Shown: positions 6,183 to 20,000 of the stretch, piece by piece | Numbering within the stretch: position 1 is the stretch's first letter | Layout: every line of letters begins with the position of its first letter | IMG/VR virus record: IMGVR_UViG_3300009159_008407 | Length of the DNA stretch: 20,000 nucleotides | Source of the DNA: an uncultured virus (IMG/VR IMGVR_UViG_3300009159_008407) | Lineage: Duplodnaviria > Heunggongvirae > Uroviricota > Caudoviricetes | Direction: 5' to 3' (one strand) | The notes under the pieces: model-generated | Database searches by the model: none | Seen by the model: the letters and a program-made list of their open reading frames with translations, nothing else | What the model was told of the DNA's origin: nothing | Made by a program: the position numbers and the translations under genes

Positions 6183-7310
6183 ATGGATAAAGAATTAAAA
6201 GCTGCTTTAGATAGTATAGATGAAATCAATCCCTATGCTACATATTTGGATAAAAATTCCCTTAGTTTGGTTGATGGTTGGATTGATACCGGAAGCTACG
6301 TATTGAATGCGTTAATTTCAGGTAAGTTTGATGGTGGTATACCAGTAGGTCGTGTAACATTACTTGCAGGTGAATCAATGACAGGTAAGAGTTTATTTGT
6401 GCAAAAAATTCTAGCGAATGCGCAAAAGATGGGTAAGACGGTACTTATATTTGATACAGAAAATTCGATTGATCCTGTAGGTGCTGAACGTCTTGGTCTT
6501 GATATTTCAAAAGTGAAATACATCCCTTCAACAACAATTGAAGAAACTCGTAACACAATCTTTAAATTTCTTACAACTGTAAAAGAAAAGAAGCTTGAAG
6601 GTAAATTCATCATTGCGATTGACTCTCTAGGTAATCTACAGTCACAGATGGAAATGAATCGAATGGAAAAAGAAAGTACTTCCGCTGATATGGGTAGTGC
6701 TGCTCGTGCTATGAAATCACTTCTTAAGACATGCAATAATATGGGTGCTCTTACTAAGACAACCATTCTTTGTACTAATCATGTGTATGATGATCCATCT
6801 GCAATGTTTCCGTCTCTCGAGAAGAATATGCCTGGTGGTAAGTCTGTAATTTATTTACCGTCTGTATCTGTTCAACTAGCTCGTAAACCTATGAAAGACG
6901 ATGGAGGTAAGACATTTGATAGTAATATGGTTGCTGGTCAGAAAAATTATTCTGGTGTTATTATTCGTGCTCTCACACGTAAGAATCGTTTTGTAAAGCA
7001 GTATCTCGAGGGTGAGATGTATTTGTCATTCTCATCAGGTTTAGACAAGTATTACGGTCTTCTTGACTTAGCTGTTGGTATGGGAGCCGTTATTCAAAAT
7101 GGTGCAACATATGCATTACCAAGTGGTACCAAGCTTGGGTATTATAAAAATTGGCGTAAAAATGCTAAGCTGTGGGAAGAGGATATCTTACCTAAATTAC
7201 AAGAAGAAATTACTAAAAATTGGTTGTATAGTAATGGTAATGAAGTCGAAGCTGATGTACCAGATGAAATCGACGAAATTGACGAACTAGAAGGAGATAA
7301 AGATGAATAG
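6183..7310 (+). CDS. uvsX: UvsX / RecA-like recombinase
   Basis: IDTGSYVLNALISG, Walker A GESMTGKS, FDTE, Walker B IAIDSLGNL, NHVY, MPGGK, acidic C-terminal tail. Confidence 0.95.
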   Translation: MDKELKAALDSIDEINPYATYLDKNSLSLVDGWIDTGSYVLNALISGKFDGGIPVGRVTLLAGESMTGKSLFVQKILANAQKMGKTVLIFDTENSIDPVGAERLGLDISKVKYIPSTTIEETRNTIFKFLTTVKEKKLEGKFIIAIDSLGNLQSQMEMNRMEKESTSADMGSAARAMKSLLKTCNNMGALTKTTILCTNHVYDDPSAMFPSLEKNMPGGKSVIYLPSVSVQLARKPMKDDGGKTFDSNMVAGQKNYSGVIIRALTRKNRFVKQYLEGEMYLSFSSGLDKYYGLLDLAVGMGAVIQNGATYALPSGTKLGYYKNWRKNAKLWEEDILPKLQEEITKNWLYSNGNEVEADVPDEIDEIDELEGDKDE

Positions 7311-7344
7311 TATCAAAATGCTATATTTTAGTGCTCCGTGGTGA
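7303..7344 (+). pseudogene. thioredoxin 5' remnant / 13-codon ORF MNSIKMLYFSAPW*
   Basis: ATG7303 overlaps the uvsX end, with AAGGAG at 7291-7296. 8 of 13 residues match the downstream thioredoxin N-terminus (MNEIKLLYFTASY). TGA falls exactly where the first Cys of WCGPC is expected. Confidence 0.8.
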
Positions 7345-7355
7345 AACACACCACG
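7337..7355 (+). other. GC-rich hairpin at the insertion junction
   Basis: CGTGGTG-aaaca-CACCACG: 7-bp perfect stem, no U-tract. Confidence 0.7.
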
Positions 7356-7359
7356 ACGC

Positions 7360-7367
7360 TATAAATA
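7360..7367 (+). promoter_or_regulatory. T4-type late promoter TATAAATA
   Basis: Exact T4 gp55 consensus, 5 nt before ATG7373. Confidence 0.75.
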
Positions 7368-7372
7368 GTTGT

Positions 7373-8062
7373 ATGAATAAAACTAATTTATTGTGGGTTA
7401 TAGAATATCAAAAATATTTACAGTTCATAAAAAATTGCAAAACAAAAATTTACAACTCTAATTTAGTATTACATACACATCATATCTATCCACGATTTCT
7501 TAAGCTCGACTGTAATTTATCCGAAGCTACAGTCGAGCTGTCTGTTGAAGACCACGTACAAGCACACTTATTAATGGCAAAATGTTTTGATGAGGGTTCA
7601 TATGAGTTTATATCAAATTTAAGATCCGCAAAGCTTTTAGCTAAAAACTCTATAATAGATAAAAAGCTATTAGATGCTATATATGAATCACAAAGAGGTG
7701 AAAATAACCCATCAAAGCGTCCTGAAAATAGAAAAAAGATTTCTGATGGTTTATTAGAATTCTATAGTAATAACCCAAATGCAAAGAAAGGTAAAACCTA
7801 TAAAGAAATTTACGGTGAAAATTATTTAGAAGAAATAAACAAAAGAAAAAAAGCGACAAGGACCAAAGAAGAATATAAACAAGGTGCAGCTAAAGCTGCT
7901 GCTACAGCTAAAGAACGAGGTAGTAATAGTGGTAGTAATAATTCAAATGCAAAAAAAATATCAATAGATGGTAAAATTTTTAATTGTATAGCTGATGCAT
8001 GTCGGTATTTTTCACTTTCACCTTATAAGTTGAAAACAACCAACAATATATTATATTTGTAA
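7373..8062 (+). mobile_element. free-standing HNH-type homing endonuclease (mob-like) with NUMOD-like DNA-binding modules
   Basis: HTHHIYPR...VELSVEDHVQAHLLM nuclease motif, then GENNPSKRPENRKKIS, KKGKTYKEIYG and C-terminal NAKKISIDGKIFNCIADACRYF. Start reassigned from GTG7331 to ATG7373, downstream of the late promoter. Confidence 0.85.
8030..8057 (+). promoter_or_regulatory. sigma70-like promoter for thioredoxin-queC, embedded in the 3' end of the HNH gene
   Basis: TTGAAA(8030-8035)-N16-TATATT(8052-8057), 6 nt before ATG8064. Confidence 0.6.
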
Positions 8063-8335: not shown

Positions 8336-9073
8336 ATGTCGAAAATAGTATTAGCATTCTCTGGTGGTATGGATTCTTCTGTCCTACTTCAAAAAGCGAT
8401 TGAACAGTTTGATGAAATTTATTGTTTATTTTTTGATTATGGTCAAAGACATAAAAAAGAACTAGATTGCGCTCATAAACAACTTATACGCCGTGTAGGT
8501 CATAAGAAAATTATCAAAATGAAAATTATTAATACACCACTAGATGTATTAGCACCAACTTCTTCTCTAACTAATCTAGATATTGATACACCAGACGTTA
8601 GAGAGATGAGAGGTGAGGCTCAACCGAAAAGCTACGTTGCATTCCGTAATATGCTTTTTATTACTTACCTTCTATCATATGCAGAAGGAGTTGGAGCGAG
8701 CACAGTTTGGTATGGAGCAGCTCAAGTTGATTCATTAGCAGGTTATTGGGATGGAAGCCCTGAGTTTCTAGATGCAATCAATGCAGTTGCTGACTTAAAT
8801 CGAGAGCATCGCATTAAAGTTGAAGCTCCTCTAATTACAATGTCTAAAAAAGAGATTATTGAAGAGGGTATTAGACTTGGTGTGAAGTTTAGCGATACTT
8901 GGACTTGCTATGCAGGTGAAGATAAAGCAGATGCTTATTCACCTTCTAGTAGTTTAAGGTTAGCTGGATTTGTTTCAGCAGGTTATATTGATCCAATCGA
9001 ATATAAACAAGACTTATCGTCTGTATGGGTTAAGCATAACTGCAAAAAAATCCCTTATGAGACTTATTTGTAA
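8336..9073 (+). CDS. queC: QueC-family (7-cyano-7-deazaguanine synthase-like) PP-loop ATPase, divergent
   Basis: SGGMDS PP-loop, DYGQRH, YVAFRN, APLITMSKKEII, TWTCY, DPIEY. The C-terminal Cys cluster is degenerate. Confidence 0.85.
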   Translation: MSKIVLAFSGGMDSSVLLQKAIEQFDEIYCLFFDYGQRHKKELDCAHKQLIRRVGHKKIIKMKIINTPLDVLAPTSSLTNLDIDTPDVREMRGEAQPKSYVAFRNMLFITYLLSYAEGVGASTVWYGAAQVDSLAGYWDGSPEFLDAINAVADLNREHRIKVEAPLITMSKKEIIEEGIRLGVKFSDTWTCYAGEDKADAYSPSSSLRLAGFVSAGYIDPIEYKQDLSSVWVKHNCKKIPYETYL

Positions 9074-10121: not shown

Positions 10122-10129
10122 TATTTATT
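10122..10129 (-). promoter_or_regulatory. late-promoter-like AATAAATA
   Basis: Minus strand reads AATAAATA-ATTTT-ATG. Confidence 0.6.
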
Positions 10130-10164: not shown

Positions 10165-10866
10165 ATGTGTTCTATATTCGGTTCAGCCGATCAATCAATG
10201 TTTGAAGTTTTATATGAAGCTAATAAAGCTCGTGGAAACTTTGCATCGTCATTACTAACGCTGATGAAAGCACCAGCTGGTAATGTTGACGATGTAAGTA
10301 TTTTAAAGCAGGAAGGTTATATTAACTTCGAAAAGCAAAAGCTCAAACCTAAAAACCATGCTTACTATATGGGGCATGTACAAGCTCCAACATCTTCAGT
10401 AAGAAAATATAACTATGATACATCACATCCATTTGAGCAAGAAGATTGGCTTGTGTTTCATAATGGTGTTTTAACAAATCATGAAAGTTTGAATGAACAA
10501 TATTGTAATTGGAATGAAAATCCTGTAGATACATCTGTTATTGTGTGTATGATTCAAGAAAAATGGAATGAGCTCAAAGGTAATAAATCTCGATCTTCTT
10601 CTACTGATGAAGTTAAAATAATTGAAACGATATGCGAGAGACTTAATGGGACGTTTGCTCTCTGTATTGTTAACACTACATCCCTTAACGTCTACCTAGT
10701 AAGACAAGGTAGTACCCTCTATATTAATGATAATGGTAGTTATTCGTCTATTAAAGGAAAGGGTTGGGTTGAATTACCTGAAGGAAAGGTTGTTAAACTT
10801 ACAAAAGAGTATAAATTTAAAGAAGTTGGTAAATTCAAACCTAACTCCCCATTCTTAATTATATGA
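10165..10866 (+). CDS. class II (Ntn-hydrolase) glutamine amidotransferase domain protein
   Basis: N-terminal MCSIFG (Cys nucleophile), ARG, GHVQAPT, SHPF, VFHNGVLTN, VDTSVI, GTFAL. Confidence 0.85.
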   Translation: MCSIFGSADQSMFEVLYEANKARGNFASSLLTLMKAPAGNVDDVSILKQEGYINFEKQKLKPKNHAYYMGHVQAPTSSVRKYNYDTSHPFEQEDWLVFHNGVLTNHESLNEQYCNWNENPVDTSVIVCMIQEKWNELKGNKSRSSSTDEVKIIETICERLNGTFALCIVNTTSLNVYLVRQGSTLYINDNGSYSSIKGKGWVELPEGKVVKLTKEYKFKEVGKFKPNSPFLII

Positions 10867-11507
10867 TAAAATTCGTATCAGCAACCAAAGGTGATCCAAA
10901 ATCAACTTTACTATATCGCAGCACAAAAGATATATATGATGTATCTTGGGCAGCAAACAATACAGACCCTTTACCTATTGTCTATAATGATGCTATTGAC
11001 GATTTTATATTATCAGACTGGATTGTATTCGTACATGATGATGTTATTATAGAAGCACCTGAAGCAATTGAAAGGCAACTCTATAATCTTGGAACAAACT
11101 TTGATGTTGTAGGGCTAGCAGGAACAAGAGAAGCAAAATTACAGAAACCAGCATTATGGCATCTAATGAGTAATAGAAAACATCATAGAGGAGCTGTAGC
11201 TCATCTATGTGAACCTACAGGTACCAAGTTTATGACCAGTTTTGGTAGTTATCCTGATCGTGTTATACTAATTGATGGTGTGTTTATGGCTGTTAAAACA
11301 GAAGTATTACAAAAAGTAAGGTTTGATGAAACAAATCCTGCTGGGTTTCACTTTTATGACCTAGACTTTTCAATGGCTTGCCATAAAGCTGGCTTTAAAA
11401 TCGGTGTAGGTGATATAACTATCACTCATGCGTCACCTGGATTGAAAGAATTTACAGATGAGTGGAATAATGGTCAAGAATGGTTCTTGAATAAGTGGTC
11501 AAACTAA
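10863..11507 (+). CDS. GT-A fold glycosyltransferase (GT2-like)
   Basis: YNDAI, VFVHDDV (DxD-like), VVGLAG, IDGVFMAV, FHFYDLDFS. ATGA-coupled to the amidotransferase. Confidence 0.8.
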   Translation: MIKFVSATKGDPKSTLLYRSTKDIYDVSWAANNTDPLPIVYNDAIDDFILSDWIVFVHDDVIIEAPEAIERQLYNLGTNFDVVGLAGTREAKLQKPALWHLMSNRKHHRGAVAHLCEPTGTKFMTSFGSYPDRVILIDGVFMAVKTEVLQKVRFDETNPAGFHFYDLDFSMACHKAGFKIGVGDITITHASPGLKEFTDEWNNGQEWFLNKWSN

Positions 11508-12755
11508 GATATCTTCAATTGGTGAATCGTTATAAACGACTTCAATCGGTCTTAAATCTGGTGTCATTAGCTTCTTTCTTGGTGAAACACCTATTAAACT
11601 ATACATTGTAGCAGCTAGTTGACCAGGAGTTACTGGATTATTATCTGGTTCTGAAGCTAAAGCATCGGATGTACCATAAGCATATCCGGATTTGACACCA
11701 CCACCTGCTAGTACTGTTGAAAATACTCTTGGCCAATGATCTCTACCATTAGTTGCGTTAATTTTTGGTGTTCTACCAAATTCAGATGTTACCATTACCA
11801 GTGTAGAGCTAAGTAAACCACGTTGTTTAAGGTCTGTAATGAATGCAGCAAAGGCTCTATCAAAGTTAATCATGTTTTGCTCATATGATCCTTTAAGATT
11901 TGAGTGGTGATCCCATGAACCATACGTTACTGTAACCATTCTTACACCAGCTTCAATCAATCTACGAGATAATAACAGCCGTTGCCCAGCTGCATTACGA
12001 CCATATGCATCTTTTACCACATCTGGTTCTTTTGATAACTCAAACGCTTCACGTGCTTGTGTTGACGACATCATTGCATATGCATCATTATAAAACGAAT
12101 CCATTGCTTTAACAGCATCTACATTAGATTCACGGGTTTTAAAGTGTTCATCAACAGCACCAAGTAGGTTACGACGTCTATCAAATGCTTTATCATTAAT
12201 ACCTGCAGGTGAATTGAGATCTTTAACAGCAAATCCTGGATCTTCTGGGTTAGAACCTAGAGAAAATGCTCCATATTTTGTTGATAGATAACCTGTACCA
12301 TTTTCTGGTGCAAATTGGTTTGGAACAAGAACGTATGCTGGTAAATTGTTGCGATTTCCTAATTCATGACTAATAACACTACCAAAAGATGGGTAGCTTA
12401 GTGCTGGTGATGGCTTATAACCAGTCAACATATTATGTGTTCCACGCTCATGAGCAGCTTCGCCATGTGTCATTGAACGGATAACAGTTAAATTATCACT
12501 AATCTTAGCAGTTTCTTTAAGAAGTGACCCAAAAGTCACATCGTCAATTTTTGTTTTAATTGGATCAAATGGTCCTCTATATTCAGATGGTGCAAATGGC
12601 TTGTAATCCCATGAATCTTGATGACTCATACCACCTGGCAAATAAATCTGTACAACTGATGTTGCTTTTGCTTTGTTTTGTGATTGAGCTCTTAAAAAAT
12701 CAGGCAATAACATCGAACCAGCAGCACCAACTCGTATAAATTCACGTCTATTCAT
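11499..12755 (-). CDS. DUF1501-family protein with twin-arginine (Tat) signal
   Basis: MNRREFI Tat motif; GGMSHQDSWDYKP, VIRSM, YPSFGSVISHELG, YGRNAAGQRLLLSRRLIEAGVRMV, WDHH, SEFGRTPKIN, GRDHWP. Confidence 0.93.
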   Translation of the reverse strand: MNRREFIRVGAAGSMLLPDFLRAQSQNKAKATSVVQIYLPGGMSHQDSWDYKPFAPSEYRGPFDPIKTKIDDVTFGSLLKETAKISDNLTVIRSMTHGEAAHERGTHNMLTGYKPSPALSYPSFGSVISHELGNRNNLPAYVLVPNQFAPENGTGYLSTKYGAFSLGSNPEDPGFAVKDLNSPAGINDKAFDRRRNLLGAVDEHFKTRESNVDAVKAMDSFYNDAYAMMSSTQAREAFELSKEPDVVKDAYGRNAAGQRLLLSRRLIEAGVRMVTVTYGSWDHHSNLKGSYEQNMINFDRAFAAFITDLKQRGLLSSTLVMVTSEFGRTPKINATNGRDHWPRVFSTVLAGGGVKSGYAYGTSDALASEPDNNPVTPGQLAATMYSLIGVSPRKKLMTPDLRPIEVVYNDSPIEDILV

Positions 12756-12760
12756 ATGGT

Positions 12761-12768
12761 TATTTAAT
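12761..12768 (-). promoter_or_regulatory. late-promoter-like ATTAAATA
   Basis: Minus strand reads ATTAAATA-ACCAT-ATG. Confidence 0.6.
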
Positions 12769-12799
12769 ACTGTTTAAAAAATATACCACAATTACCATC

Positions 12800-12830
12800 T
12801 TGATATACTATATCTAGCTACTATTATAAT
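12800..12830 (+). promoter_or_regulatory. sigma70-like promoter for helicase
   Basis: TTGATA(12800-12805)-N16-TATTAT(12822-12827), with an overlapping TATAAT at 12825-12830; ATG at 12834. Confidence 0.6.
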
Positions 12831-12833
12831 GTA

Positions 12834-14153
12834 ATGTTAAAATTAGACTTGGACTTTTTTGAGAATATCTTTTTGTATAAATGCTGTACAGATAAACGAT
12901 ATCTTGCAACTACTATTGATTACACCAAATCAGATTATTTTAAAAACAGAGATAATAAAAAAATATTTGAGATTATCAAAGGATTTTATGATGTTCGCAA
13001 TGAATTACCTAATTTAACGGAAATAAAGCAGTATTGTGGTGATGAAGTAAGTAGATCATCATTTAAAAACGTGCTTACCAGCTTTCAAAGCCTTGATAAA
13101 AGCTTCAACGAAGATGAATTGTATGAAAATACCGAGCAATTTTTAAAAGAGAAGGCTGTTTTTAGTACTTTACTTGAGGTTGCTGCTGATATTTCAAGTA
13201 ATAAGGCTGATACCTCTGCAATTCTTGATAAATTTGAAAAAAGCTGTAATATATCTTTGCAGACTGATGTTGGATTAGACTTGTATGCAGATATTGATAA
13301 TGTAATCAAGCAAATCCAGGATGTACAGGAAACTATTCCAAGTACATGGCCTTGGTTGGATGATTATATTGGTGGGGGCTTTATGAGAGATGGTCGAGCT
13401 TTATATGTCTTTGCAGGTGAGACTAATATTGGTAAATCTATTTTTCTCGGCAATATTGCAGCTAATATAGCAGATCAGAATAAAACTGTACTGTTAATTA
13501 CGTTAGAAATGCCTGAAATATTGTATGCGAAACGTATTTGTACTAATGTAAGTAAGATTCCAATGAAGACTCTTCATTTAGAGACTGGATCTCTTAAAGC
13601 AGCCATTGAAGATATTAAGAAAAATAAGCCAGGTGGTAAGATTCTTATCAAAGAATTTCCTCCTGCAACAATGACTCCAAGGCAGATTCAAGCTTTCATT
13701 AAAAAAATTGAAGATAAAGGTATTAAAATTGATGCTATTGTGTTAGATTACTTGAATCTACTACATTCTCCAATGGGTAATAACAGTTATGAACGTATTA
13801 AACATGTAACTGAGCAGGTTCGTGCTATGTCATACATCTTTAGCTGTCCTGTTATTAGTGCAACCCAGCTTAATCGTTCAGGATTTGATGTTTCTAACCC
13901 TGATCTTAATACTATTAGTGAGTCTATCGGTCTTGCAGCTACTGCAGATGTTATTGTTTCTATCTTCCAGAATGATGAAGATAGAGAACTAGAGATTATT
14001 AAAATGGGTATGATGAAAAACCGATTTGGAGCACGTGGAACAACTACATCAATGAAAATAGATTATTCAACTTTAACTATTTCAGAAGCAGATGGCCAAA
14101 CAGGTGGTATGGAAAGTGAAATGTTAAGTTCATTGAGTATGTTTGCGAGTTGA
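12834..14153 (+). CDS. 41: replicative DNA helicase (gp41/DnaB-like, SF4)
   Basis: Walker A GETNIGKS, ITLEM, IKEFP, VLDYLNLL, SATQLNR, ISESIGLAATAD, KNRFG. Confidence 0.95.
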   Translation: MLKLDLDFFENIFLYKCCTDKRYLATTIDYTKSDYFKNRDNKKIFEIIKGFYDVRNELPNLTEIKQYCGDEVSRSSFKNVLTSFQSLDKSFNEDELYENTEQFLKEKAVFSTLLEVAADISSNKADTSAILDKFEKSCNISLQTDVGLDLYADIDNVIKQIQDVQETIPSTWPWLDDYIGGGFMRDGRALYVFAGETNIGKSIFLGNIAANIADQNKTVLLITLEMPEILYAKRICTNVSKIPMKTLHLETGSLKAAIEDIKKNKPGGKILIKEFPPATMTPRQIQAFIKKIEDKGIKIDAIVLDYLNLLHSPMGNNSYERIKHVTEQVRAMSYIFSCPVISATQLNRSGFDVSNPDLNTISESIGLAATADVIVSIFQNDEDRELEIIKMGMMKNRFGARGTTTSMKIDYSTLTISEADGQTGGMESEMLSSLSMFAS

Positions 14154-14168
14154 TTATTTGGAGTAACC

Positions 14169-14176
14169 TCTAAATA
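14169..14176 (+). promoter_or_regulatory. late-promoter-like TCTAAATA
   Basis: TCTAAATA-ATGAG-GTG(14182): same 5-nt spacing as the other late motifs. Confidence 0.5.
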
Positions 14177-14181
14177 ATGAG

Positions 14182-14508
14182 GTGAACCAAAGCTTTATAG
14201 ATTACCTTAAAGAAAAATTCAAAACAACACAGTTTTTTCAACTAAAACTCAACGGTAAAATGTTTGTAAGTTTTTTTGATACTGGTGTTGTAACACCTGA
14301 ATTTATTAAATTATGCCAAAAGAAGTTTAACTGCGATGTTTTACTAGTTGTTAACACTAAAAACAAAGAGGTTGTTGTGTATAAGAGTGAAATTTCTGAT
14401 GTTAACATCAATGATTTTAACAAAAAGGTGTTTAATAAAGGCTCAGGCCATATTTTCTCATTCACTAAAGAATTTTTAGGTCTAACCAAACATTTCAAGC
14501 CATGTTAA
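14182..14508 (+). CDS. hypothetical protein, possibly an isolated or degenerate DHHA1-like domain
   Basis: DVLLVVN...VVVYK...DVNINDF...KGSGH resembles the DHHA1 GGGH region; no DHH catalytic domain is present. Confidence 0.4.
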   Translation: MNQSFIDYLKEKFKTTQFFQLKLNGKMFVSFFDTGVVTPEFIKLCQKKFNCDVLLVVNTKNKEVVVYKSEISDVNINDFNKKVFNKGSGHIFSFTKEFLGLTKHFKPC

Positions 14509-14789
14509 TTACAAACAAAAACTATAATCCAGCCCACTTTTTGGTTGAAGATGAAACAGAGCACTCTTTATTATCTTTTTGTACATTTTGTACACTTCTA
14601 GTTGGTAAAAAACTTTCTTTTCAAAACGTATTTCTATTGATTCTTAAAGATATAAAATTGAAAAACATATTAAAGAGAATTTTAGACGTTGATTCTGACT
14701 TTGAAATAGTTAAAATGTTTATAGATTACGATAATACAATTACAAAGTCAAAATATGTCACAAAATACATCAATTCTCTCAAAAAATGA
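14502..14789 (+). CDS. hypothetical protein
   Basis: 95-aa ORF tightly packed in the operon. Confidence 0.65.
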   Translation: MLITNKNYNPAHFLVEDETEHSLLSFCTFCTLLVGKKLSFQNVFLLILKDIKLKNILKRILDVDSDFEIVKMFIDYDNTITKSKYVTKYINSLKK

Positions 14790-15444
14790 TATCACAGAAG
14801 ATGAAAAGAGAATTTATAATGCATTCTTAATTGCATCCAAAAAAGCTAAAAACAAACCATTCAGATTAAGACAAAATTTTACTGATATATCAGATGAAAT
14901 TTATATCAGTCTAAAAAAACTCGGTGTATTTTTTAATACAAACCAGACAATTTCATGTAATGACTTTTTCTGGGCACCATATGAAATTTATTCAAAAGAA
15001 GAATATTTTGATTTGAGTTTTTATCATATGAGAAAGGCAATTATTGCTTATTCTCAATATATGAGAAAAAAAGAAACTCAAGACCCAGATAATGAGCTAA
15101 CTATTCAAGATTGTAAAGATGCTCTTAAAAATATATACAATCAGTGTTTGCAAAATAGTATAACTCTATCACAGTACAAGACATCACAACCACCCGTACC
15201 GTTATTTTTAATTAACCTCAAATCCCATTTAATTAATTTCTATATATTACATGGGTTAGATGTGGAAAAACAAATTAAGAGTGTAGAACCAGAGTTATTA
15301 GACTTTTATTGTAAAGATTTTTACGATCTATTTTACAAAACCCGAAATAGATTTATTGCATCTCAAAGACTTAAAATAGTAATTAGAGAAGGATTAAAAA
15401 TAATTGAAAAAAAACTGTTGAATTTATCAAAACCTAATTTATAA
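14755..15444 (+). CDS. hypothetical protein, candidate gp59-like helicase loader
   Basis: 229 aa, basic and aromatic, directly upstream of gp32 as T4 gene 59 is. Function inferred from position and size only. Confidence 0.4.
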   Translation: MSQNTSILSKNDITEDEKRIYNAFLIASKKAKNKPFRLRQNFTDISDEIYISLKKLGVFFNTNQTISCNDFFWAPYEIYSKEEYFDLSFYHMRKAIIAYSQYMRKKETQDPDNELTIQDCKDALKNIYNQCLQNSITLSQYKTSQPPVPLFLINLKSHLINFYILHGLDVEKQIKSVEPELLDFYCKDFYDLFYKTRNRFIASQRLKIVIREGLKIIEKKLLNLSKPNL

Positions 15445-15445
15445 T
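15418..15445 (+). promoter_or_regulatory. sigma70-like promoter for gp32
   Basis: TTGAAT(15418-15423)-N16-TATAAT(15440-15445), 10 nt before ATG15456. Confidence 0.65.
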
Positions 15446-15455
15446 AAGATATACT

Positions 15456-16307
15456 ATGAGTAAATATAACCTAACGTCAATGTTCGATTCCATTAAAGAA
15501 GCTTTAACTTCGCAAGATAATAAGCAAGGAAGTTTGCAAGATATTATGCAACTTAAACCTGGTAATACCTATACAGTAAGGCTTCTACCTAATACAAAAA
15601 ATCCAAAGCAGTCTCTTTTTCATCATTTTACGCATGGTTGGAATTCTCTTGCTACTGGTAAGTATGTAAGTGCTATTTCACCTACTACATTCGGTGAACG
15701 TGATCCTATTGCTGAAGAAAGATATAAAGTTCTTCGTACCGGTACTGAAGAAGAAAAAGAGAAAATGAAAACTATTCGTCGTGCCGAACAATGGCTTACT
15801 AATGTTTATGTAATTGATGATCCGTCTAAGCCAGAAAATAACGGCAAAGTAAAAATTCTTCGTTATGGTAAACAGCTTGGTAATATTATCAATAGCGCTA
15901 TTAGTGGTGATGAAGCTGAAGAGTTCGGTATGCGAGTTTTTGATCTATCTAAAGAAGGTGTTAACTTCAAGATTAAGGTTGAAAAGCAAGGTGACTATCC
16001 AGTATATACTTCTTCACGATTTACTTCTGTGGGTAAAGATCTTGGTTTGAGTGAATCCAAGCAAGATGAAGTTCTTGAGTCTACACATGACCTTGAAAAT
16101 GTATTCCGGGTTAAGACTGAAGATGAGCTTAAGCAAATGCTTGATGAGCATTTTTATTGTAAGACCGCTGAAGACCGTGAAACTACAACTTCATTACCTG
16201 AAGCAGATGAAGCGATTGCAGAGCTTAGTAATAAGGTTAAGCAACCATCAGTTAATTCTTCTAGTATTGAAGATGCTGATATCGATGAACTTCTTAAAGA
16301 TCTATGA
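15456..16307 (+). CDS. 32: single-stranded DNA-binding protein (gp32-like)
   Basis: VRLLP, HGW, SPTTFGERDPI, NVYVIDDPSKPENNGKVKILRYGKQL, FDLSKEGVNFKIK, YPVYTSSRF, acidic tail DIDELLKDL. Confidence 0.92.
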   Translation: MSKYNLTSMFDSIKEALTSQDNKQGSLQDIMQLKPGNTYTVRLLPNTKNPKQSLFHHFTHGWNSLATGKYVSAISPTTFGERDPIAEERYKVLRTGTEEEKEKMKTIRRAEQWLTNVYVIDDPSKPENNGKVKILRYGKQLGNIINSAISGDEAEEFGMRVFDLSKEGVNFKIKVEKQGDYPVYTSSRFTSVGKDLGLSESKQDEVLESTHDLENVFRVKTEDELKQMLDEHFYCKTAEDRETTTSLPEADEAIAELSNKVKQPSVNSSSIEDADIDELLKDL

Positions 16308-16825
16308 ACCCAGACGCAATTGAACAACAAAAAATGCTACTCAATTTAATGGGTAGCGTTTATGGTGAGGCTAGAAAAATTGATCAAAATTTAGTTGGTC
16401 AATCAGCTCATTTGAGACCTCAAAGTGAGCAGGTTAAGCAGTTGTTTGAGAGTACGTTGAGAAATGCTCAGCCACCTCCACCACCACAACCTCAATTTGC
16501 TCCACCACCTCAACTACCACCAAATACTGTTAATTTACCACATGTTATTCAACACCCACAAGAATCTAGACCTATTCAACTAGTTGATAATTCAGATATT
16601 GTTTCTATATTAAAAGGTATTGAAAGCAATCTTGGTAAGTTAGTAGAATTATTCACACAATATGAAGTTAAAGTTAAAAAAGCAACAAATCGAAAAGTTT
16701 CTAGAGTCTCTAGCGAAGATAAACGATCAGTGTATAGTGAAAGTGGAGAAGGAGAAAATATCGTCGATAGTAACGTCGACGGACAATACGTTGATCCTTT
16801 ACGCGATTCTAAACCATTCGAATGA
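16304..16825 (+). CDS. hypothetical Pro/Gln-rich protein
   Basis: ATGA-coupled to gp32; contains QPPPPPQPQFAPPPQLPP. The 3' 164 nt overlap the clamp gene. Confidence 0.7.
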   Translation: MNPDAIEQQKMLLNLMGSVYGEARKIDQNLVGQSAHLRPQSEQVKQLFESTLRNAQPPPPPQPQFAPPPQLPPNTVNLPHVIQHPQESRPIQLVDNSDIVSILKGIESNLGKLVELFTQYEVKVKKATNRKVSRVSSEDKRSVYSESGEGENIVDSNVDGQYVDPLRDSKPFE

Positions 16826-17372
16826 ATCCGAAAGATCCTTATGTATACCGGACTTAAAAAAACTTAATCGAGTTTTAGACTGTATTAATAGTGATGAAAT
16901 TGAACTCCAGGTTAATCAAAATAACCTGGAGTATAAATCCCCAGAAATTAAATTTAAATATCACCTTTTTGAAGATGATTTCATTGCACCCCCTTCAGTT
17001 AAACCTGAAAAGATTATGTCCTTTGATACCGACTTTACTTTTGAGTTGGTAAAAGAGGATTTTAGTAAAATTAATAAAGCTTCTACTTTTACTACCGAAA
17101 CTAATAAAATTTATTTTTATCTTGAAGATGGTATGGTAAAGTGTGAGCTTACAGATAAAGCTAGACATAATACAGATTCATTTCAATTGCAAGTAGGTAA
17201 AAATATAGTTGGTAATGAACTTAAAAATATACCTATTAACTTTGATAACTTTAAACTTATTAATTCAGATAATGTAAGTGTATCGATCAATAATAAGTAT
17301 GGGGTACTTATATTTGATATTGATCAAGGGCCGCTTAAATTAAGATATATTTTATCATCACTCACACAATAA
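16662..17372 (+). CDS. 45: DNA polymerase sliding clamp (gp45/PCNA-like)
   Basis: 236 aa with a clamp-like repeated pattern (FLESLAKINDQCIV, LCIPDLKKL, IKFKYHLFE, FTFELVKEDFSKINKAS); replication-cluster context. Confidence 0.7.
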   Translation: MKLKLKKQQIEKFLESLAKINDQCIVKVEKEKISSIVTSTDNTLILYAILNHSNESERSLCIPDLKKLNRVLDCINSDEIELQVNQNNLEYKSPEIKFKYHLFEDDFIAPPSVKPEKIMSFDTDFTFELVKEDFSKINKASTFTTETNKIYFYLEDGMVKCELTDKARHNTDSFQLQVGKNIVGNELKNIPINFDNFKLINSDNVSVSINNKYGVLIFDIDQGPLKLRYILSSLTQ

Positions 17373-17373
17373 C

Positions 17374-17727
17374 ATGGACCACATACTAACATACCAAGAC
17401 AAAAATAAGCTTAAAACATCAGGATATTTTATTAAGCGTTTAAAAGATAGTGGTTTTATTACTCTTAGAATATTCCAGAAATATGGGATTTCTGATCCAC
17501 GTAAGTGGACTATTCTTGTGGATCCAGGTGTTACATCTGTGTTTATTACATGTTATCAAAATAAAGAAAAACTTAATGAAATTATGTTTGAAATTGATGA
17601 TGGTGGGGTGAGGTTTCCTCGTAACTACTTTATCAAAACCCATTCTATTGAGGTTATTGTGGAATATTTGCTTGAAAAAGGTATATCACAAAATGACACA
17701 ACTAATCCGTTTTATAAACTGGATTAA
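17374..17727 (+). CDS. hypothetical protein
   Basis: 117-aa ORF starting 1 nt after the clamp stop. Confidence 0.7.
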   Translation: MDHILTYQDKNKLKTSGYFIKRLKDSGFITLRIFQKYGISDPRKWTILVDPGVTSVFITCYQNKEKLNEIMFEIDDGGVRFPRNYFIKTHSIEVIVEYLLEKGISQNDTTNPFYKLD

Positions 17728-17730
17728 ATA
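17723..17730 (+). promoter_or_regulatory. late-promoter-like ATTAAATA
   Basis: ATTAAATA-TGTTT-ATG(17736). Confidence 0.55.
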
Positions 17731-17735
17731 TGTTT

Positions 17736-18101
17736 ATGAGTGATGAACCTAAAAAATATAAAAGGAAAAAAATCACTCCCAAAGCACCTTCTCAAGATGA
17801 GACTGAGAAGGTGCAATCGAATATAGATATTAAAAATCTAATAAATGAAATTCTTTCTAACAAACTGAAAGAAGTAAAGAAAAACAAAGGGGTTGAAGAT
17901 ATTAATAATGCTCTTGTTTGTACAATAAGTGAATTTCTTGATTGTTTTATGTTATTAGGGTATAATAGTGAAGGTGTACCTATAGCTTTAACAAAATGTA
18001 ATACACCCATACATGCAGATGCATTACATTCATTACTAATGAAGTTTTTCGCAATTCAAATGGGTAAATTTAATGACAAATATGGTGGGGATGATTTTTA
18101 A
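17736..18101 (+). CDS. hypothetical protein with basic N-terminus
   Basis: Start at ATG17736 (MSDEPKKYKRKK) preferred because ATG17730 overlaps the late motif. Confidence 0.65.
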   Translation: MSDEPKKYKRKKITPKAPSQDETEKVQSNIDIKNLINEILSNKLKEVKKNKGVEDINNALVCTISEFLDCFMLLGYNSEGVPIALTKCNTPIHADALHSLLMKFFAIQMGKFNDKYGGDDF

Positions 18102-18366
18102 ACGAGAGCCTGAACCTAAAAAAAGCATACCATATGCTGTTCAGAATGGGCATTATGTAGGTGAAATGTTCGTTTACATGGAAAAGGATGATAAAAATTT
18201 TTATTTCATCTCTATTCCTAAAAATATAAACAGAGAAGTACCTAAAGATAGGTTTTTCTTCGGTGTTGAAAATAAAATACTCGAAGAAGTTGAAAAGTTA
18301 CCTAACAACATTTATAGTCTTTTAAAATCACAATATCTTTATAATAAAAATAAAGTTATTAAATAA
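18091..18366 (+). CDS. hypothetical protein
   Basis: ORF in the 18073 frame; ATG18091 minimises overlap with the previous gene. Start uncertain. Confidence 0.6.
   Translation: MIFKREPEPKKSIPYAVQNGHYVGEMFVYMEKDDKNFYFISIPKNINREVPKDRFFFGVENKILEEVEKLPNNIYSLLKSQYLYNKNKVIK
18358..18365 (+). promoter_or_regulatory. late-promoter-like ATTAAATA
   Basis: Same octamer as upstream of the DUF1501 gene, 13 nt before ATG18379. Confidence 0.45.
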
Positions 18367-18378
18367 TAAAAGACTACT

Positions 18379-20000
18379 ATGAAAAAACTTATAGCTATAT
18401 TAGTAAGTGTTTGCGCTCTATCATTTGGTGCAACTTTAGATCAACTTAACACATACAGTAGTAATATTGATTCTGTGTTACAAAAACAATACGTAGCAGC
18501 TAATGTTATACCACTTGGTAAAATTGATGATGATAAATTTTTACGACGAGCGTATCTTACAATAATTGGTAGAAATCCAACCTATGAAGAGTATGACTTG
18601 TTTAATAAAGCAACAGACCCTAATAAGAGACGAGGTTTAATACAGTTTCTTATGAACCATCCAGGTTATACATCACATATGTTTAACTTCTGGGCTGAAT
18701 CATTAAGATTGCGTGATAGAATTAACACCACTAACAATTTTTCTGGTGGTCCTTACATTGATTATGTTAAAGACTCAATCACAGCTAACAAATCTTATTC
18801 AAAGTTTGTTACAGATCTGTTAACATCAACAGGTTCATATTATGATAACCCAGCAACAGGATACTTCTATCGTGATTTAGGAATGCCATTAGATAACCTT
18901 ATTGGTACAGGTAAAGTATTCATGGGAACCGATATTGGTTGTGCACAATGCCATGATGATCCTTTCCAAGACTTCACCCAAATGCAGTTTTATAAGATGG
19001 CTGCTATGTTTACCCAGATAGAACTTAGAGGTCGTGGTAAAGATAAAGATCCAGCGGTAGCAGCTCGTCAGAAAGCTTTGAGAGAAGAAATTGATGCTAT
19101 AATTAAAGCTGATCCTATAAAGAACCGTGGGTTAAACAATACTATTAACAACTTTGTTAATGCTATGAGATCTAATATTGAAGTAGATGAAAAGCGTGTA
19201 TTGAAACTACCTCATGATTACAATTATAAAGATGCAAAACCAGGCGATGTTGTTATACCTGCAGTCCTTTCTGGTAAGACTGAAATTAACAATAAGGTTG
19301 ATATGAGAAAGGATGTTATTAGCTGGTTAGTTAACCCAAATCATCCAACATTCACTAAAAACATTGCTAATCGTTACTGGAAATGGGTGTTTGGTAAACA
19401 TATAATGGATAACTATGATAATATTCACGATGAAAAAGAGCTTAATGGTGAGCTTATGAACACTCTTGCTAAGATTATGGTAGACGTTAACTATGATACT
19501 AAGCAATTCCTGTATGTTCTTTACAATACAACATTGTTTCAAAGAGAACTCTATGACGGCATGTATACTAATACAGATAAATTTGTGTTCATTGGACCAG
19601 TCAAACAACGTTTAACAGCAGAGCAATTGTGGGATTCAGTTATGTCTATCGCTATTGCTAAGCCTGAAACATTTAAGTTAACTTTCCAAGATGAATATGT
19701 TAAAATAATGAGATATAATATCGAAGATTTAACAATTGATAAATTAAAAGCTAAAAACGAAGAATATCAAAAGGTAATTCGTTCAAAATATGAAGCAGCT
19801 CCAAAATATCGGAACTTTCCTCTAGTAAGAGCTTCAGAAGTTAATGATAACAACCCAGTTAATACCATTCTTGAACAACTTGGTCGTAGTGATCGTGAGT
19901 TAATTGATACATCTTCAAAAGAAGGTTCAGTTACACAGGTTATTTCTTTTATGAACGGTCAATTAGCTGAAGTTGCAATCAATAAAGATACTAATATTGC
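18379..20000 (+). CDS. DUF1549 (PSCyt2) + DUF1553 (PSD1) domain protein with Sec-type signal and CxxCH motif (partial, runs off the window)
   Basis: Translated by hand, no stop to 20000. MKKLIAILVSVCALSFGA signal; DDDKFLRRAYLTIIGRNPT; RDLGMPLDN; FMGTDIGCAQCHDDPF (CxxCH at 18940-18954); LKLPHDY; WLVNPNHPTFTKNIANRYWKWVFG; RLTAEQLWDS; RASE; GRSDRELID; QVISFMNG. Confidence 0.92.
   Translation, partial: MKKLIAILVSVCALSFGATLDQLNTYSSNIDSVLQKQYVAANVIPLGKIDDDKFLRRAYLTIIGRNPTYEEYDLFNKATDPNKRRGLIQFLMNHPGYTSHMFNFWAESLRLRDRINTTNNFSGGPYIDYVKDSITANKSYSKFVTDLLTSTGSYYDNPATGYFYRDLGMPLDNLIGTGKVFMGTDIGCAQCHDDPFQDFTQMQFYKMAAMFTQIELRGRGKDKDPAVAARQKALREEIDAIIKADPIKNRGLNNTINNFVNAMRSNIEVDEKRVLKLPHDYNYKDAKPGDVVIPAVLSGKTEINNKVDMRKDVISWLVNPNHPTFTKNIANRYWKWVFGKHIMDNYDNIHDEKELNGELMNTLAKIMVDVNYDTKQFLYVLYNTTLFQRELYDGMYTNTDKFVFIGPVKQRLTAEQLWDSVMSIAIAKPETFKLTFQDEYVKIMRYNIEDLTIDKLKAKNEEYQKVIRSKYEAAPKYRNFPLVRASEVNDNNPVNTILEQLGRSDRELIDTSSKEGSVTQVISFMNGQLAEVAINKDTNI

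What the first reader, a model, noticed from the sequence alone, without database searches (positions are those of the whole stretch)
11499..20000. Phage-encoded DUF1501 + DUF1549/DUF1553 pair: a PVC-bacterial exported module carried by a T4-like phage
Seen: an intact Tat-signal DUF1501 gene (11499-12755, minus) and a Sec-signal DUF1549/DUF1553 gene with CxxCH (18379 onward, plus). They are about 5.6 kb apart, separated by core phage replication genes, and each is preceded by the same ATTAAATA octamer. Both are as A/T-rich at third codon positions as their phage neighbours, judged by eye. Known: these families are strongly expanded and usually adjacent in Planctomycetota and Verrucomicrobiota, and their function is unknown. 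Inference: the phage has kept both partner families long enough to ameliorate them and put them under late control. This suggests a selected two-component periplasmic function (envelope remodelling, redox/metal chemistry, superinfection exclusion or a decoy) and points to a PVC host. The two genes may not be cognate partners; a second DUF1501 could follow beyond base 20000.
Basis: partly seen in the sequence, partly recalled or inferred. Interest (0 to 1): 0.88.

Follow-up and report, generated by a model that had tools for sequence, protein, structure and literature searches.

The report
Phage-borne PVC-type exported DUF1501 enzyme module
An uncultured freshwater T4-like phage carries three intact, strongly conserved genes for exported proteins of an unexplained bacterial family typical of Verrucomicrobia and Planctomycetes, which gives a small, tractable version of that family to study.

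Summary
Pfam finds a full-length DUF1501 at 11499-12755(-) (E 1e-108) and DUF1549+DUF1553 from 18379(+), among T4-type replication genes. The window's contig runs 607 bases further.

B, not the DUF1501 in the window ("A"), is the cognate partner. A B-like DUF1501 follows the gene in 16 of 16 phage loci and 60 of 69 cellular loci with room. A complex prediction passed (0.65 against best control 0.00).

The genes are not an assembly artefact. Their third-position GC matches the phage, and dN/dS is 0.03-0.19. The nearest cellular relatives are Verrucomicrobiota and Planctomycetota.

DUF1501 has an alkaline-phosphatase-superfamily fold and lacks the sulfatase motif. The haem-motif partner has no known fold.

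The biochemical function, "late" expression and a PVC host remain unproven.

This scan noted the same phenomenon earlier on other phage DNA. My paper searches found no printed report of phage carriage.

The parts
11499..12755 (-). DUF1501_A: Tat-signal, alkaline-phosphatase-superfamily enzyme (418 aa) of a stand-alone subfamily
   Evidence: PF07394 at 364 bits, full length. RREFI twin-arginine motif, no Cys, and no [CS]x[PA]xR motif. AF2 model pLDDT 82.9. Fold matches to NPP/PafA/sulfatases at Z 18-20. 59-63% identical to 1-2 orthologues in each of 5 Verrucomicrobiaceae genomes, where the next paralogues are at most 43%.
12756..12768 (-). Upstream element ATTAAATA-ACCAT-ATG; the TAAATA core lies at -11 from the start codon
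   Evidence: TAAATA sits at -11 or -12 before the A gene in 11 of the 12 distinct relatives I read, although the flanks have diverged.
18358..18365 (+). The same octamer before the DUF1549/53 gene; the TAAATA core lies at -19
   Evidence: TAAATA sits 12-25 bases before the start codon in 11 of the 12 distinct relatives I read.
18379..20000 (+). DUF1549(PSCyt2)+DUF1553(PSD1) protein with a Sec signal and one CxxCH. It runs on to window-equivalent 20166 (595 aa). DUF1501_B (Tat signal, 411 aa) starts 9 bases later at 20175, outside the window.
   Evidence: AF2 model pLDDT 86.6, with no fold match. Predicted to bind B: 0.65 against a best control of 0.00.
12834..17372 (+). Phage replication genes between the two DUF genes: gp41-like helicase 12834-14153, gp32 15456-16307, gp45-like clamp 16662-17372, and small ORFs
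   Evidence: Pfam DnaB_C and gp32; PHROG 223 processivity factor. Syntenic in 10 IMG/VR contigs.
10863..11507 (+). GT2 glycosyltransferase that flanks DUF1501_A on the other side; the two genes converge and overlap by 9 bases
   Evidence: Pfam Glyco_tranf_2_5. The position is conserved in the clade.

Best explanation
The window is part of an uncultured freshwater phage of a deep-branching T4-like lineage. It carries three intact genes of a PVC-type periplasmic module.

(1) The gene from 18379 encodes a Sec-exported PSCyt2/PSD1 protein with one invariant CxxCH haem-attachment motif. (2) Directly downstream, just past the window, its cognate Tat-exported DUF1501 ('B') follows. The two are predicted to form a heterodimer, in which the conserved C-terminal part of PSD1 docks on the helical cap of DUF1501. 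(3) The DUF1501 in the window ('A') belongs to a different, stand-alone subfamily. Its closest cellular orthologues are in Verrucomicrobiaceae, where it is not next to a PSCyt gene.

Shown here: the genes are phage-borne, conserved, ameliorated and under purifying selection, and they have moved between phage lineages.

Inferred: the phage drives them from its own TAAATA-type promoters, probably of the gp55 late type. The host's Sec, Tat and cytochrome-c maturation systems place them in the periplasm. There the two DUF1501 enzymes act as metal-dependent ester hydrolases of the alkaline-phosphatase superfamily. Their fold and motifs fit the phosphodiesterase/phosphatase type better than the formylglycine sulfatases.

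My preferred role is an auxiliary metabolic one: freeing phosphate (or sulfate) from periplasmic organic esters for phage replication. I give that last step about one chance in three. The substrate is unknown.
For: Phage identity: the contig encodes gp43, UvsX, gp41, gp32, gp45-like, gp46/47-like, UvsY and a gp55-like late sigma factor.

Not chimeric: the gene order is conserved in 10 IMG/VR contigs, and one independent contig spans 11000-20000.

Selection: dN/dS is 0.03-0.19 for A, 0.05-0.13 for DUF1549/53 and 0.04-0.11 for B, at dS about 0.1-2.8. That range resembles gp43, gp41 and gp32 (0.03-0.18).

Amelioration: GC3 is 0.18-0.23.

Cognate pair: a DUF1501 lies directly downstream of the gene in 16 of 16 viral loci with room and in 60 of 69 cellular loci with room. 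All 60 score higher with B than with A. The DUF1549/53 and B trees mirror each other: a phage-only clade (100* in both), and a separate Opitutia-linked pair in L020.

Binding: ipSAE was 0.65, 0.66 and 0.62 against a best control of 0.00. The partner's pLDDT was 86, and the runs agree in at least 61% of contacts. That mark was reached by 116 of 157 solved complexes and 2 of 215 mismatched pairs. Those counts hold only roughly, because I supplied my own alignments. No related solved structure exists by sequence, so the pass is not a recall of a known complex.

Enzyme class: VIA-align gives Z 19.5-20.1 to NPP phosphodiesterases and PafA/SPAP phosphatases, and Z 17.8-19.1 to sulfatases. A has 0 Cys and no [CS]x[PA]xR motif. 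The WDHH and GRDH motifs are invariant.

Own promoter element.

Spread: one search found 102 IMG/VR stretches that encode DUF1501 relatives. The carriers include a complete 224.7 kb T4-like genome with terminal repeats and PolIII-alpha/RNR phages.

Transfer between phages: the 224.7 kb phage shares 79%, 81% and 88% identity for A, DUF1549/53 and B, but only 51% for DNA polymerase.

Possible expression: short contigs from two lake metatranscriptome libraries of two studies match parts of A and of DUF1549/53 without a mismatch.
Against: - No substrate, metal, haem or activity was measured, so the function is inferred from fold and motifs only.
- Sulfatases score within about 1-2 Z units of the phosphodiesterases. 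That is a near tie.
- The catalytic nucleophile is not identified. The invariant S94 and H102 lie near the expected place, but I could not inspect the model's coordinates.
- The sulfatase 'SDHG' metal motif aligns to 'SEFG' in DUF1501, so the active site may be atypical.
- If TAAATA is a late promoter, expression late in infection fits nutrient scavenging less well than an envelope role.
- The RNA-library contigs do not prove transcription, because DNA carry-over is possible and cover is patchy.
- The phage-only clades may be tightened by shared AT-rich composition; the tool flagged the amino-acid make-up of the phage rows.
- The DUF1501 tree is FastTree only, and the sister relation of A to Verrucomicrobiaceae has support 86, not starred.
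- The complex score is the model's own confidence, not a measurement.
Confidence: 0.6

Rival explanations
1. Envelope remodelling or receptor destruction. Made late and exported to the periplasm, the enzymes would strip or alter a phosphodiester- or sulfate-linked group on lipopolysaccharide, capsule or peptidoglycan-linked polymer. This would block superinfection, or stop progeny from sticking to debris.
For: - TAAATA resembles the core of the T4 late promoter TATAAATA (consensus recalled from memory). The contig encodes a gp55-like late sigma factor. The motif is conserved before A and DUF1549/53, while the replication genes carry TATAAT instead.
- Lipoteichoic-acid synthase LtaS, an envelope-modifying member of the superfamily, is among the fold matches.
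- Envelope-active genes lie beside the module in other phages: NlpC/P60 between A and DUF1549/53 in L025, and an amidase and a matrixin near the pair in L091.
- Glycosyltransferases flank A in this phage.
Against: - The DUF1501 proteins have no membrane anchor, unlike LtaS and EptA-type enzymes (a recalled property).
- The timing of expression was not measured.
- The same families are expanded to dozens of copies per PVC genome: the five Verrucomicrobiaceae genomes hold 12-23 matches each at E <= 1e-60. That pattern looks like substrate-diverse catabolism rather than self-modification.
Confidence: 0.22
2. A redox module. The haem protein would be the working part, a periplasmic cytochrome that passes electrons to or from DUF1501 or a substrate, as Kamneva et al. 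proposed for the cellular modules. The phage would use it for electron transport or detoxification.
For: - The fixed residues of CxxCH (C188, A189, C191, H192) are invariant in 41 of 41 homologues.
- Kamneva et al. 2012 (PMC3542564; passages read) argue for electron transport from the cytochrome motifs and Tat signals.
Against: - There is only one CxxCH in 595 residues and no cytochrome c domain; Pfam finds only PSCyt2 and PSD1.
- The model has no cytochrome-like or other known fold: the best Foldseek E-value is 0.27 and the best VIA Z is 4.9.
- The partner has a hydrolase fold, not an oxidoreductase fold.
Confidence: 0.1
3. An artefact or passenger: the genes come from a chimeric assembly or a bacterial fragment wrongly called viral, or they are recently captured genes without function in the phage.
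For: - All the carrier contigs that I examined closely are metagenomic. The only GenBank phage match is a weak partial hit, 29% of A at 37.8% identity, and DUF1549/53 has none.
- IMG/VR can hold misclassified contigs. One IMG/VR DUF1501 (L015) sits very close to Opitutia bacterial genes, and I did not check that contig.
Against: - The genes are flanked on both sides by phage replication genes in 7-10 independent contigs.
- An independent 2024 assembly spans the whole stretch.
- A complete 224.7 kb phage genome with terminal repeats carries the trio next to gp15, gp20, gp21 and gp23.
- GC3 equals that of the phage, and dN/dS is 0.03-0.19.
Confidence: 0.03

Closest known systems
DUF1501 + PSCyt/PSD1 conserved gene module of Planctomycetes, Verrucomicrobia and Lentisphaerae (Kamneva et al. 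2012, PMC3542564; passages read)
   Same: The Pfam families are the same. So are the Tat motif on DUF1501, the signal peptide and CxxCH on the partner, and the gene order, with the PSCyt2/PSD1 gene directly followed by DUF1501. That order holds in 60 of 69 cellular loci with room and in this phage.
   Different: - The module is carried by phages, not cells.
- The partner is short, 595 aa against 626-876 aa for 68 cellular homologues. Those cellular lengths come from my own ORF calls, and their start codons are uncertain.
- It has no PSCyt1, carbohydrate-binding or other added domain.
- It is 30-40% identical to the best cellular homologues.
- The phage holds one pair plus one solo DUF1501, instead of dozens of copies.
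PSCyt gene sets of freshwater Verrucomicrobia (He et al. 2017, PMC5615132; passages read)
   Same: The habitat is the same: all runs that hold this DNA are labelled freshwater or lake. PSCyt2-encoding genes sit next to a family of unknown genes, and the products are predicted to be periplasmic.
   Different: He et al. link PSCyt genes to sulfatases and carbohydrate use in cellular genomes. Here the context is phage replication genes, and no carbohydrate-binding module is present.
Nucleotide pyrophosphatase/phosphodiesterases and PafA-type alkaline phosphatases (e.g. 2gsn, 5tj3), and S1 formylglycine sulfatases
   Same: They share the alpha/beta core fold. VIA-align gives Z 19.5-20.1 over 241-283 aligned residues at rmsd 3.0-4.6 for NPP/PafA, and Z 17.8-19.1 for sulfatases.
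   Different: - Sequence identity is 9-16%, and there is no significant sequence match to any PDB chain.
- The formylglycine motif is absent.
- The sulfatase 'SDHG' stretch reads 'SEFG'.
- DUF1501 has a helical cap that is predicted to dock a partner protein.
Phage auxiliary metabolic genes for nutrient acquisition, such as phoH, pstS and phoA of marine T4-like phages (recalled knowledge, not looked up here)
   Same: Host-derived genes sit among phage genes, are conserved under purifying selection, and encode or serve periplasmic nutrient handling. In one PolIII-alpha-type phage locus, phoH lies about 3.8 kb from a DUF1501 array (L066).
   Different: The family has no known substrate. It is a two-protein unit with a haem-motif subunit. 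Its promoter motif is of the late type.

Membership tests
Pfam DUF1501 (PF07394) | Full-length match above the gathering score | tested here: met
   A scores 364.3 bits (cut-off 27) over profile positions 1-390 of 390. B scores 326.7 bits over 1-390 of 390.
Pfam DUF1501 (PF07394) | Twin-arginine (Tat) export signal, as described for the family by Kamneva et al. | tested here: met
   RREFI in A and RRNFV in B. The RR pair is invariant or nearly so in 34 and 42 homologues. This rests on the motif only; no signal-peptide predictor was available.
PSCyt2/PSD1 proteins (PF07583 + PF07587) | Both domains above the gathering score, in that order | tested here: met
   For the full-length protein, 120.7 and 88.2 bits against cut-offs of 29.8 and 28.5. 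For the window part, 120.6 and 72.8 bits.
PSCyt2/PSD1 proteins (PF07583 + PF07587) | CxxCH haem-attachment motif | tested here: met
   CAQCH at residues 188-192. C188, A189, C191 and H192 are invariant in 41 of 41 sequences.
c-type cytochrome | Covalently bound haem and a cytochrome fold | not testable with these tools
   Haem attachment needs experiment. No cytochrome or other known fold was recovered, which is inconclusive for a 595-residue model searched whole.
Kamneva DUF1501-PSCyt/PSD1 module | PSCyt/PSD1 gene adjacent to a DUF1501 gene on the same strand | tested here: met
   The DUF1549/53 gene ends at window-equivalent 20166 and B starts at 20175. The same adjacency holds in 16 of 16 viral loci with room. 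The DUF1501 inside the window (A) does not meet this: it lies 5.6 kb away on the other strand.
Kamneva DUF1501-PSCyt/PSD1 module | PSCyt1 cytochrome domain in the partner (PSCyt1/PSCyt2/PSD1 architecture) | tested here: not met
   No PF07635 hit in the phage protein, nor in 8 of 8 nearest cellular homologues tested. The phage protein belongs to the simpler PSCyt2/PSD1 architecture.
S1 formylglycine sulfatases | [CS]-x-[PA]-x-R motif at the nucleophile position | tested here: not met
   A has no Cys and no such motif. B has one regex match (CLAKR at 253), far from the strand-helix junction near residue 95 where the nucleophile should lie.
Alkaline phosphatase superfamily (fold level) | Shared alpha/beta core recovered by structure comparison | tested here: met
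   494 of the 1000 compared chains score Z >= 8, and the top Z is 20.1. Foldseek finds 120 matches at E <= 0.001. The model's pLDDT is 82.9.
T4-like (Straboviridae-type) phage | T4 core replication and late-transcription genes in one contig | tested here: met
   gp43, UvsX, gp41 and gp32; gp46-like and gp45-like; gp47-like, gp55-like, helicase and UvsY. The lineage is distant: its DNA polymerase is at most 31% identical to any of 2,677 matching GenBank phage records.
Phage auxiliary metabolic gene | Flanked by phage genes, conserved in related phages, expressed in infection | tested here: inconclusive
   Flanking and conservation are met. Expression is not settled: contigs from two RNA libraries cover parts of A and DUF1549/53, but DNA carry-over is not excluded.

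The most novel reading that the evidence does not exclude
Aquatic phages of several unrelated lineages maintain and exchange a minimal two-subunit periplasmic enzyme: a haem-motif PSD1 protein docked on the cap of a DUF1501 hydrolase, plus solo DUF1501s. They would fire it from late, near-leaderless promoters to rework phospho- or sulfo-ester groups in the host periplasm or envelope. On this reading phages are both users and vectors of the largest orphan protein family of Planctomycetes and Verrucomicrobia, and the phage copy reveals the family's core mechanism, a partner-activated hydrolase.
Probability: 0.2. Interest if true: 0.78.

Novelty: new member of a known kind. Interest (0 to 1): 0.6.

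Why it matters
DUF1501 and PSCyt/PSD1 proteins number in the dozens per genome in Planctomycetes and Verrucomicrobia. They have had no assigned function since they were first described; Kamneva 2012 and He 2017, in the passages I read, both say the function is unknown.

A phage keeps only what pays during one infection. A stripped-down copy under strong purifying selection is therefore a clean entry point for biochemistry. Here that copy is one pair plus one solo enzyme, with no accessory domains.

The predicted interface gives concrete residues to test: PSD1 residues 393-411, 496-528 and 569-593 against DUF1501_B residues 142-222.

For phage ecology, the finding adds a widespread exported gene set to the list of candidate auxiliary genes of freshwater and marine phages: one search found 102 IMG/VR stretches that encode DUF1501 relatives. 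It also points, weakly, to Verrucomicrobia-type hosts for a T4-like lineage that has no cultured relative.

Tried and rejected
- Octamer as a shared promoter: ATTAAATA is not enriched, and TATAAATA occurs once. I replaced this with the TAAATA positional analysis. Against composition-preserving shuffles of each 40-base upstream stretch the enrichment is modest: 10 of 43 ORFs against a mean of 4.8, with 32 of 2000 shuffles reaching 10. But 6 of the 10 sit at exactly -11. One search gave 12 of 43 because it also counted motifs overlapping the ATG.
- GenBank phages: no usable homologue.
- Host from phage relatives: DNA polymerase identity is at most 31% to isolated phages of cyanobacteria, Vibrio, Caulobacter, Sinorhizobium and Methylophilales, so there is no host hint.
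- Conserved neighbour of the A orthologue: in 2 of the 4 Verrucomicrobiaceae loci examined, a roughly 400 aa protein without a Pfam match lies beside it. It has no homologue in the phage contig or the viral loci. My ORF picking missed the DUF1501 gene in one of the four loci (L192).
- Sulfur link: a weak APS-kinase-like hit lies upstream of the trio in L087 (E 1.3e-7), and a very weak one lies on this contig (E 6.5e-4, below cut-off). This is too weak to build on.
- Sequence search of the PDB: nothing for A. For DUF1549/53 there were only chance-level hits. A profile of A and B found only a local sulfatase/LtaS motif at E >= 0.013.
- Fold of DUF1549/53: the best Foldseek E-value is 0.27 and the best VIA wide Z is 4.9. 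There were recurrent weak, roughly 105-residue matches to phycobilisome-linker domains, and one weak Pfam hit to PF00427 in a cellular homologue (E 6.7e-4). I do not read these as homology.
- RNA: parts of the stretch had no cover in either RNA run (12806-13407, 13709-14009, 17622-18223). With contigs, that shows nothing.
- Earlier notes of this scan: none for this genome.

Full report
**What is in the window.** The 20 kb window is the minus strand of bases 608-20607 of a single 33.5 kb virus record. Pfam and PHROGs give a T4-type gene set:
- an SbcC/gp46-like gene (100-1917);
- family B DNA polymerase (3150-5726);
- UvsX (6183-7310);
- a homing-endonuclease-like ORF, thioredoxin and QueC;
- an amidotransferase-like ORF and a GT2 glycosyltransferase;
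- a DnaB-like gp41 helicase (12834-14153), gp32 (15456-16307) and a gp45-like clamp (16662-17372).

The rest of the contig adds gp47-like, a gp55-like late sigma factor, a helicase and UvsY. The lineage is remote from cultured phages. Its polymerase is at most 31% identical to any of the 2,677 matching GenBank phage records.

**The observation.**
- The ORF 11499-12755(-) is a full-length DUF1501 (364 bits) with a twin-arginine N-terminus.
- The ORF from 18379(+) is DUF1549+DUF1553, with a Sec-type signal and one CxxCH.
- GC3 of the three DUF genes is 0.175-0.232, inside the phage range of 0.19-0.29. Cellular homologues sit in loci of 42-72% GC.
- The octamer ATTAAATA lies before both genes, but it is no more frequent than chance (4 against 5.5 expected).

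**Beyond the window.** The contig runs 607 bases further. The DUF1549/53 gene ends at window-equivalent 20166 (595 aa). Nine bases later a second ORF opens with MNNLTRRNF.... On a near-identical 84.8 kb IMG/VR contig this ORF is 411 aa and a full-length DUF1501 (326.7 bits). I call the window's DUF1501 'A', the downstream one 'B', and the DUF1549/53 protein 'C'.

**Which genes are partners.** In 16 of the 20 viral loci found with C, the contig continues past C, and all 16 have B directly downstream. Of the 80 best cellular loci, all Verrucomicrobiota or Planctomycetota (30-40% identical to C), 69 have room after the gene. Of those, 60 carry a DUF1501 directly downstream, and all 60 score higher with B than with A.

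A belongs to another subfamily. Each of five Verrucomicrobiaceae genomes has one or two orthologues at 59-63% identity, while the next paralogues are at most 43%. In the loci I annotated, these orthologues are not next to a PSCyt gene.

**Physical pairing.** A complex prediction of C (19-595) with B (30-411), each given as an alignment, scored 0.65, 0.66 and 0.62 against 0.00 for the best of three controls. The partner's pLDDT was 86, and the runs agree in at least 61% of contacts. The mark was reached by 116 of 157 solved complexes and 2 of 215 mismatched pairs in the tool's calibration. Those counts hold only roughly, because I used my own alignments.

The interface joins C residues 393-411, 496-528 and 569-593 to B residues 142-222. 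The C side includes the invariant C-terminal W583, N587 and F591. The B side lies in the stretch that corresponds to the helical cap seen in the model of A. No related structure is solved, so the score is not a recall. It supports binding but does not show it.

**Real, kept and moving.**
- Gene order: seven IMG/VR contigs hold A between GT2 and gp41, and ten share the clade's order.
- Independent assembly: a DNA run of another study and year has one 11.3 kb contig across 11000-20000, with 239 differing letters.
- Selection: against four relatives of the clade, dN/dS is 0.03-0.19 for A, 0.08-0.13 for C and 0.04-0.11 for B. That resembles gp43, gp41 and gp32 (0.03-0.18). Small neighbouring ORFs reach 0.3-0.7.
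- A complete carrier: a complete 224.7 kb T4-like genome with terminal repeats carries A, C and B in a row, just upstream of gp15, gp20, gp21 and gp23. It shares 79%, 81% and 88% identity for the three proteins but only 51% for the polymerase.
- A mosaic relative: another relative has A at about 100% identity (dS 0.08) beside gp41 at 79% (dS 1.5).

Both of the last two patterns indicate transfer of the DUF genes between phages.

**Other carriers.** PolIII-alpha/RNR-type phages carry C plus two DUF1501 genes (L020), or four tandem DUF1501 genes and no C in the locus (L037, L066). Two further phage types are L025 and L091. In all, one search found 102 IMG/VR stretches that encode DUF1501 relatives. 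I annotated only eight of the non-syntenic loci.

**Trees.**
- DUF1501 (167 rows after removing near-copies at 92%; FastTree): A lies in a 10-row phage clade (98*). With five unnamed metagenome proteins (99*), that clade is sister to a Verrucomicrobiaceae clade, with support 86, not starred. B lies in a 9-row phage-only clade (100*), inside a Verrucomicrobiota/Planctomycetota clade of partner-linked DUF1501s (98*).
- C (41 rows; IQ-TREE quick): six of seven phage rows form one clade (100*). L020's C groups with Opitutia (99*), as does its DUF1501.

So the pair was captured at least twice and travels as a unit. One caveat applies: the phage rows have a deviant amino-acid make-up, which can pull them together.

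**What the proteins are.**
- A's model (pLDDT 82.9) has the alkaline-phosphatase-superfamily core. Foldseek puts sulfatases and LtaS first. VIA-align re-ranking puts NPP phosphodiesterases and PafA/SPAP phosphatases first (Z 19.5-20.1) and sulfatases just below (Z 17.8-19.1). That is a near tie.
- A has no cysteine and no formylglycine motif, so it is not an S1 sulfatase.
- Invariant residues include S94, H102, W281-D282-x-H284 and R338-D339-H340. I infer a metal site with a Ser/Thr/His-type nucleophile. I could not check this on coordinates.
- C's model is confident (pLDDT 86.6, pTM 0.89) and mostly helical. It has no match in the PDB.

**Expression signals.**
- TAAATA lies at -11 before A and at -19 before C. 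B has it at -15, inside the end of the C gene.
- In the relatives I read, 11 of 12 distinct sequences keep TAAATA at -11 or -12 before A, and 11 of 12 keep it 12-25 bases before C, although the flanks differ.
- Contig-wide, 10 of 43 ORFs have the hexamer within 40 bases upstream (shuffle mean 4.8; 32 of 2000 shuffles reach 10), and 6 of those 10 sit at exactly -11.
- Replication genes instead carry TATAAT: 11 of 43 ORFs, equal to the maximum seen in 2000 shuffles.
- With a gp55-like gene on the contig, this fits T4-type late promoters and very short or absent leaders. No transcript start was measured.
- Short contigs from two lake metatranscriptome libraries match parts of A (12403-12604) and C (18403-18693, 19096-19775) without a mismatch. 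DNA carry-over is not excluded.

**Reading.** The solid part is this: a phage-borne, selected, exported module made of a predicted C-B heterodimer plus a solo DUF1501, derived from PVC-type bacteria and exchanged among aquatic phages.

The functional part is inference. I favour periplasmic ester hydrolysis that serves phage replication, at about one chance in three. Envelope remodelling or receptor destruction comes second, and fits a late promoter better. The host is unknown, and a PVC donor does not prove a PVC host.

**Prior knowledge.** My full-text searches gave the following:
- 'DUF1501' with 'phage': two papers, the one I opened being an irrelevant weak CDD hit in a 61 aa protein;
- 'DUF1501' with 'DUF1553': none;
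- 'DUF1501' alone: 12 papers;
- DUF1549, DUF1553, PSCyt2 or 'PSD1 domain': 5 papers.

None reports phage carriage in its title, abstract or the passages I read. Papers outside the held library were not searched.

This scan had already noted the same phenomenon on other phage DNA (e1-6111114, e1-6163662, e1-5859972, e1-5709048, e1-5927705). Those are unchecked AI notes. My results here were reached independently and agree with them.

Noticed in passing
contig-wide; e.g. window 10122-10127(-), 12761-12766(-), 14171-14176(+): Two positional upstream motifs. TAAATA lies at exactly -11 from the ATG in 6 ORFs. TATAAT lies 7-19 bases before the ATG of polymerase, UvsX, gp41 and gp32. If these are -10 elements, many transcripts would be leaderless or nearly so.
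   Followed up: partly
window 19718-19996: The window and the stored genome record are identical over 19,717 bases. They then differ at 23 positions in the last 280 bases, inside the DUF1549/53 gene: 17 synonymous and 6 not. Other runs carry the genome record's letters at many of these places. It looks like a recombination patch or a strain variant.
   Followed up: partly
window 7331-8062: An ORF of homing-endonuclease type (I-TevI DNA-binding domain) lies between UvsX and thioredoxin. It was found only in the identical contig L001 and is absent from the other syntenic relatives, so it looks like a mobile insertion.
   Followed up: no
window 8336-9073 and 10165-10866: QueC and a class-II glutamine-amidotransferase-like ORF are conserved across the phage clade at 73-89% identity. 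They may be part of a 7-deazaguanine pathway (an idea from memory, not tested).
   Followed up: no
L007 about 16600-20500: In one relative the DNA polymerase region is about 1.3 kb longer than in L005, which suggests an intein, intron or endonuclease insertion.
   Followed up: no
L002/L082/L083 compared with the window: A mosaic relative. UvsX and DUF1501_A are about 100% identical (dS 0.15 and 0.08), and DUF1501_B is 99%. But gp41, gp32 and the small ORFs are 49-82% identical (dS about 1-2.9). This points to recent exchange of segments between diverged phages.
   Followed up: partly
L037 8754-14430; L066 7103-14284: PolIII-alpha/RNR-type marine phage contigs carry four DUF1501 genes in a row, with no DUF1549/53 gene in the locus. 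In L066 phoH lies about 3.8 kb downstream of the array.
   Followed up: partly
L025 17943-20852: The ribonucleotide reductase large subunit is interrupted by an intein with a LAGLIDADG domain, in a phage contig that also carries A, NlpC/P60, C and B.
   Followed up: no
window 16304-16825: ORF173 overlaps the gp45-like gene by 164 bases. It shows dN/dS of 0.4-0.7 with low dS (0.26-0.70), unlike its neighbours. It may not be a real gene, or the overlap may constrain it.
   Followed up: no
L015 about 7034; L130, L136: One IMG/VR DUF1501 sits very close to Opitutia bacterial genes (branch lengths 0.07-0.2, clade 100*). It is either a recent capture or a bacterial contig filed as viral. I did not check which.
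   Followed up: no
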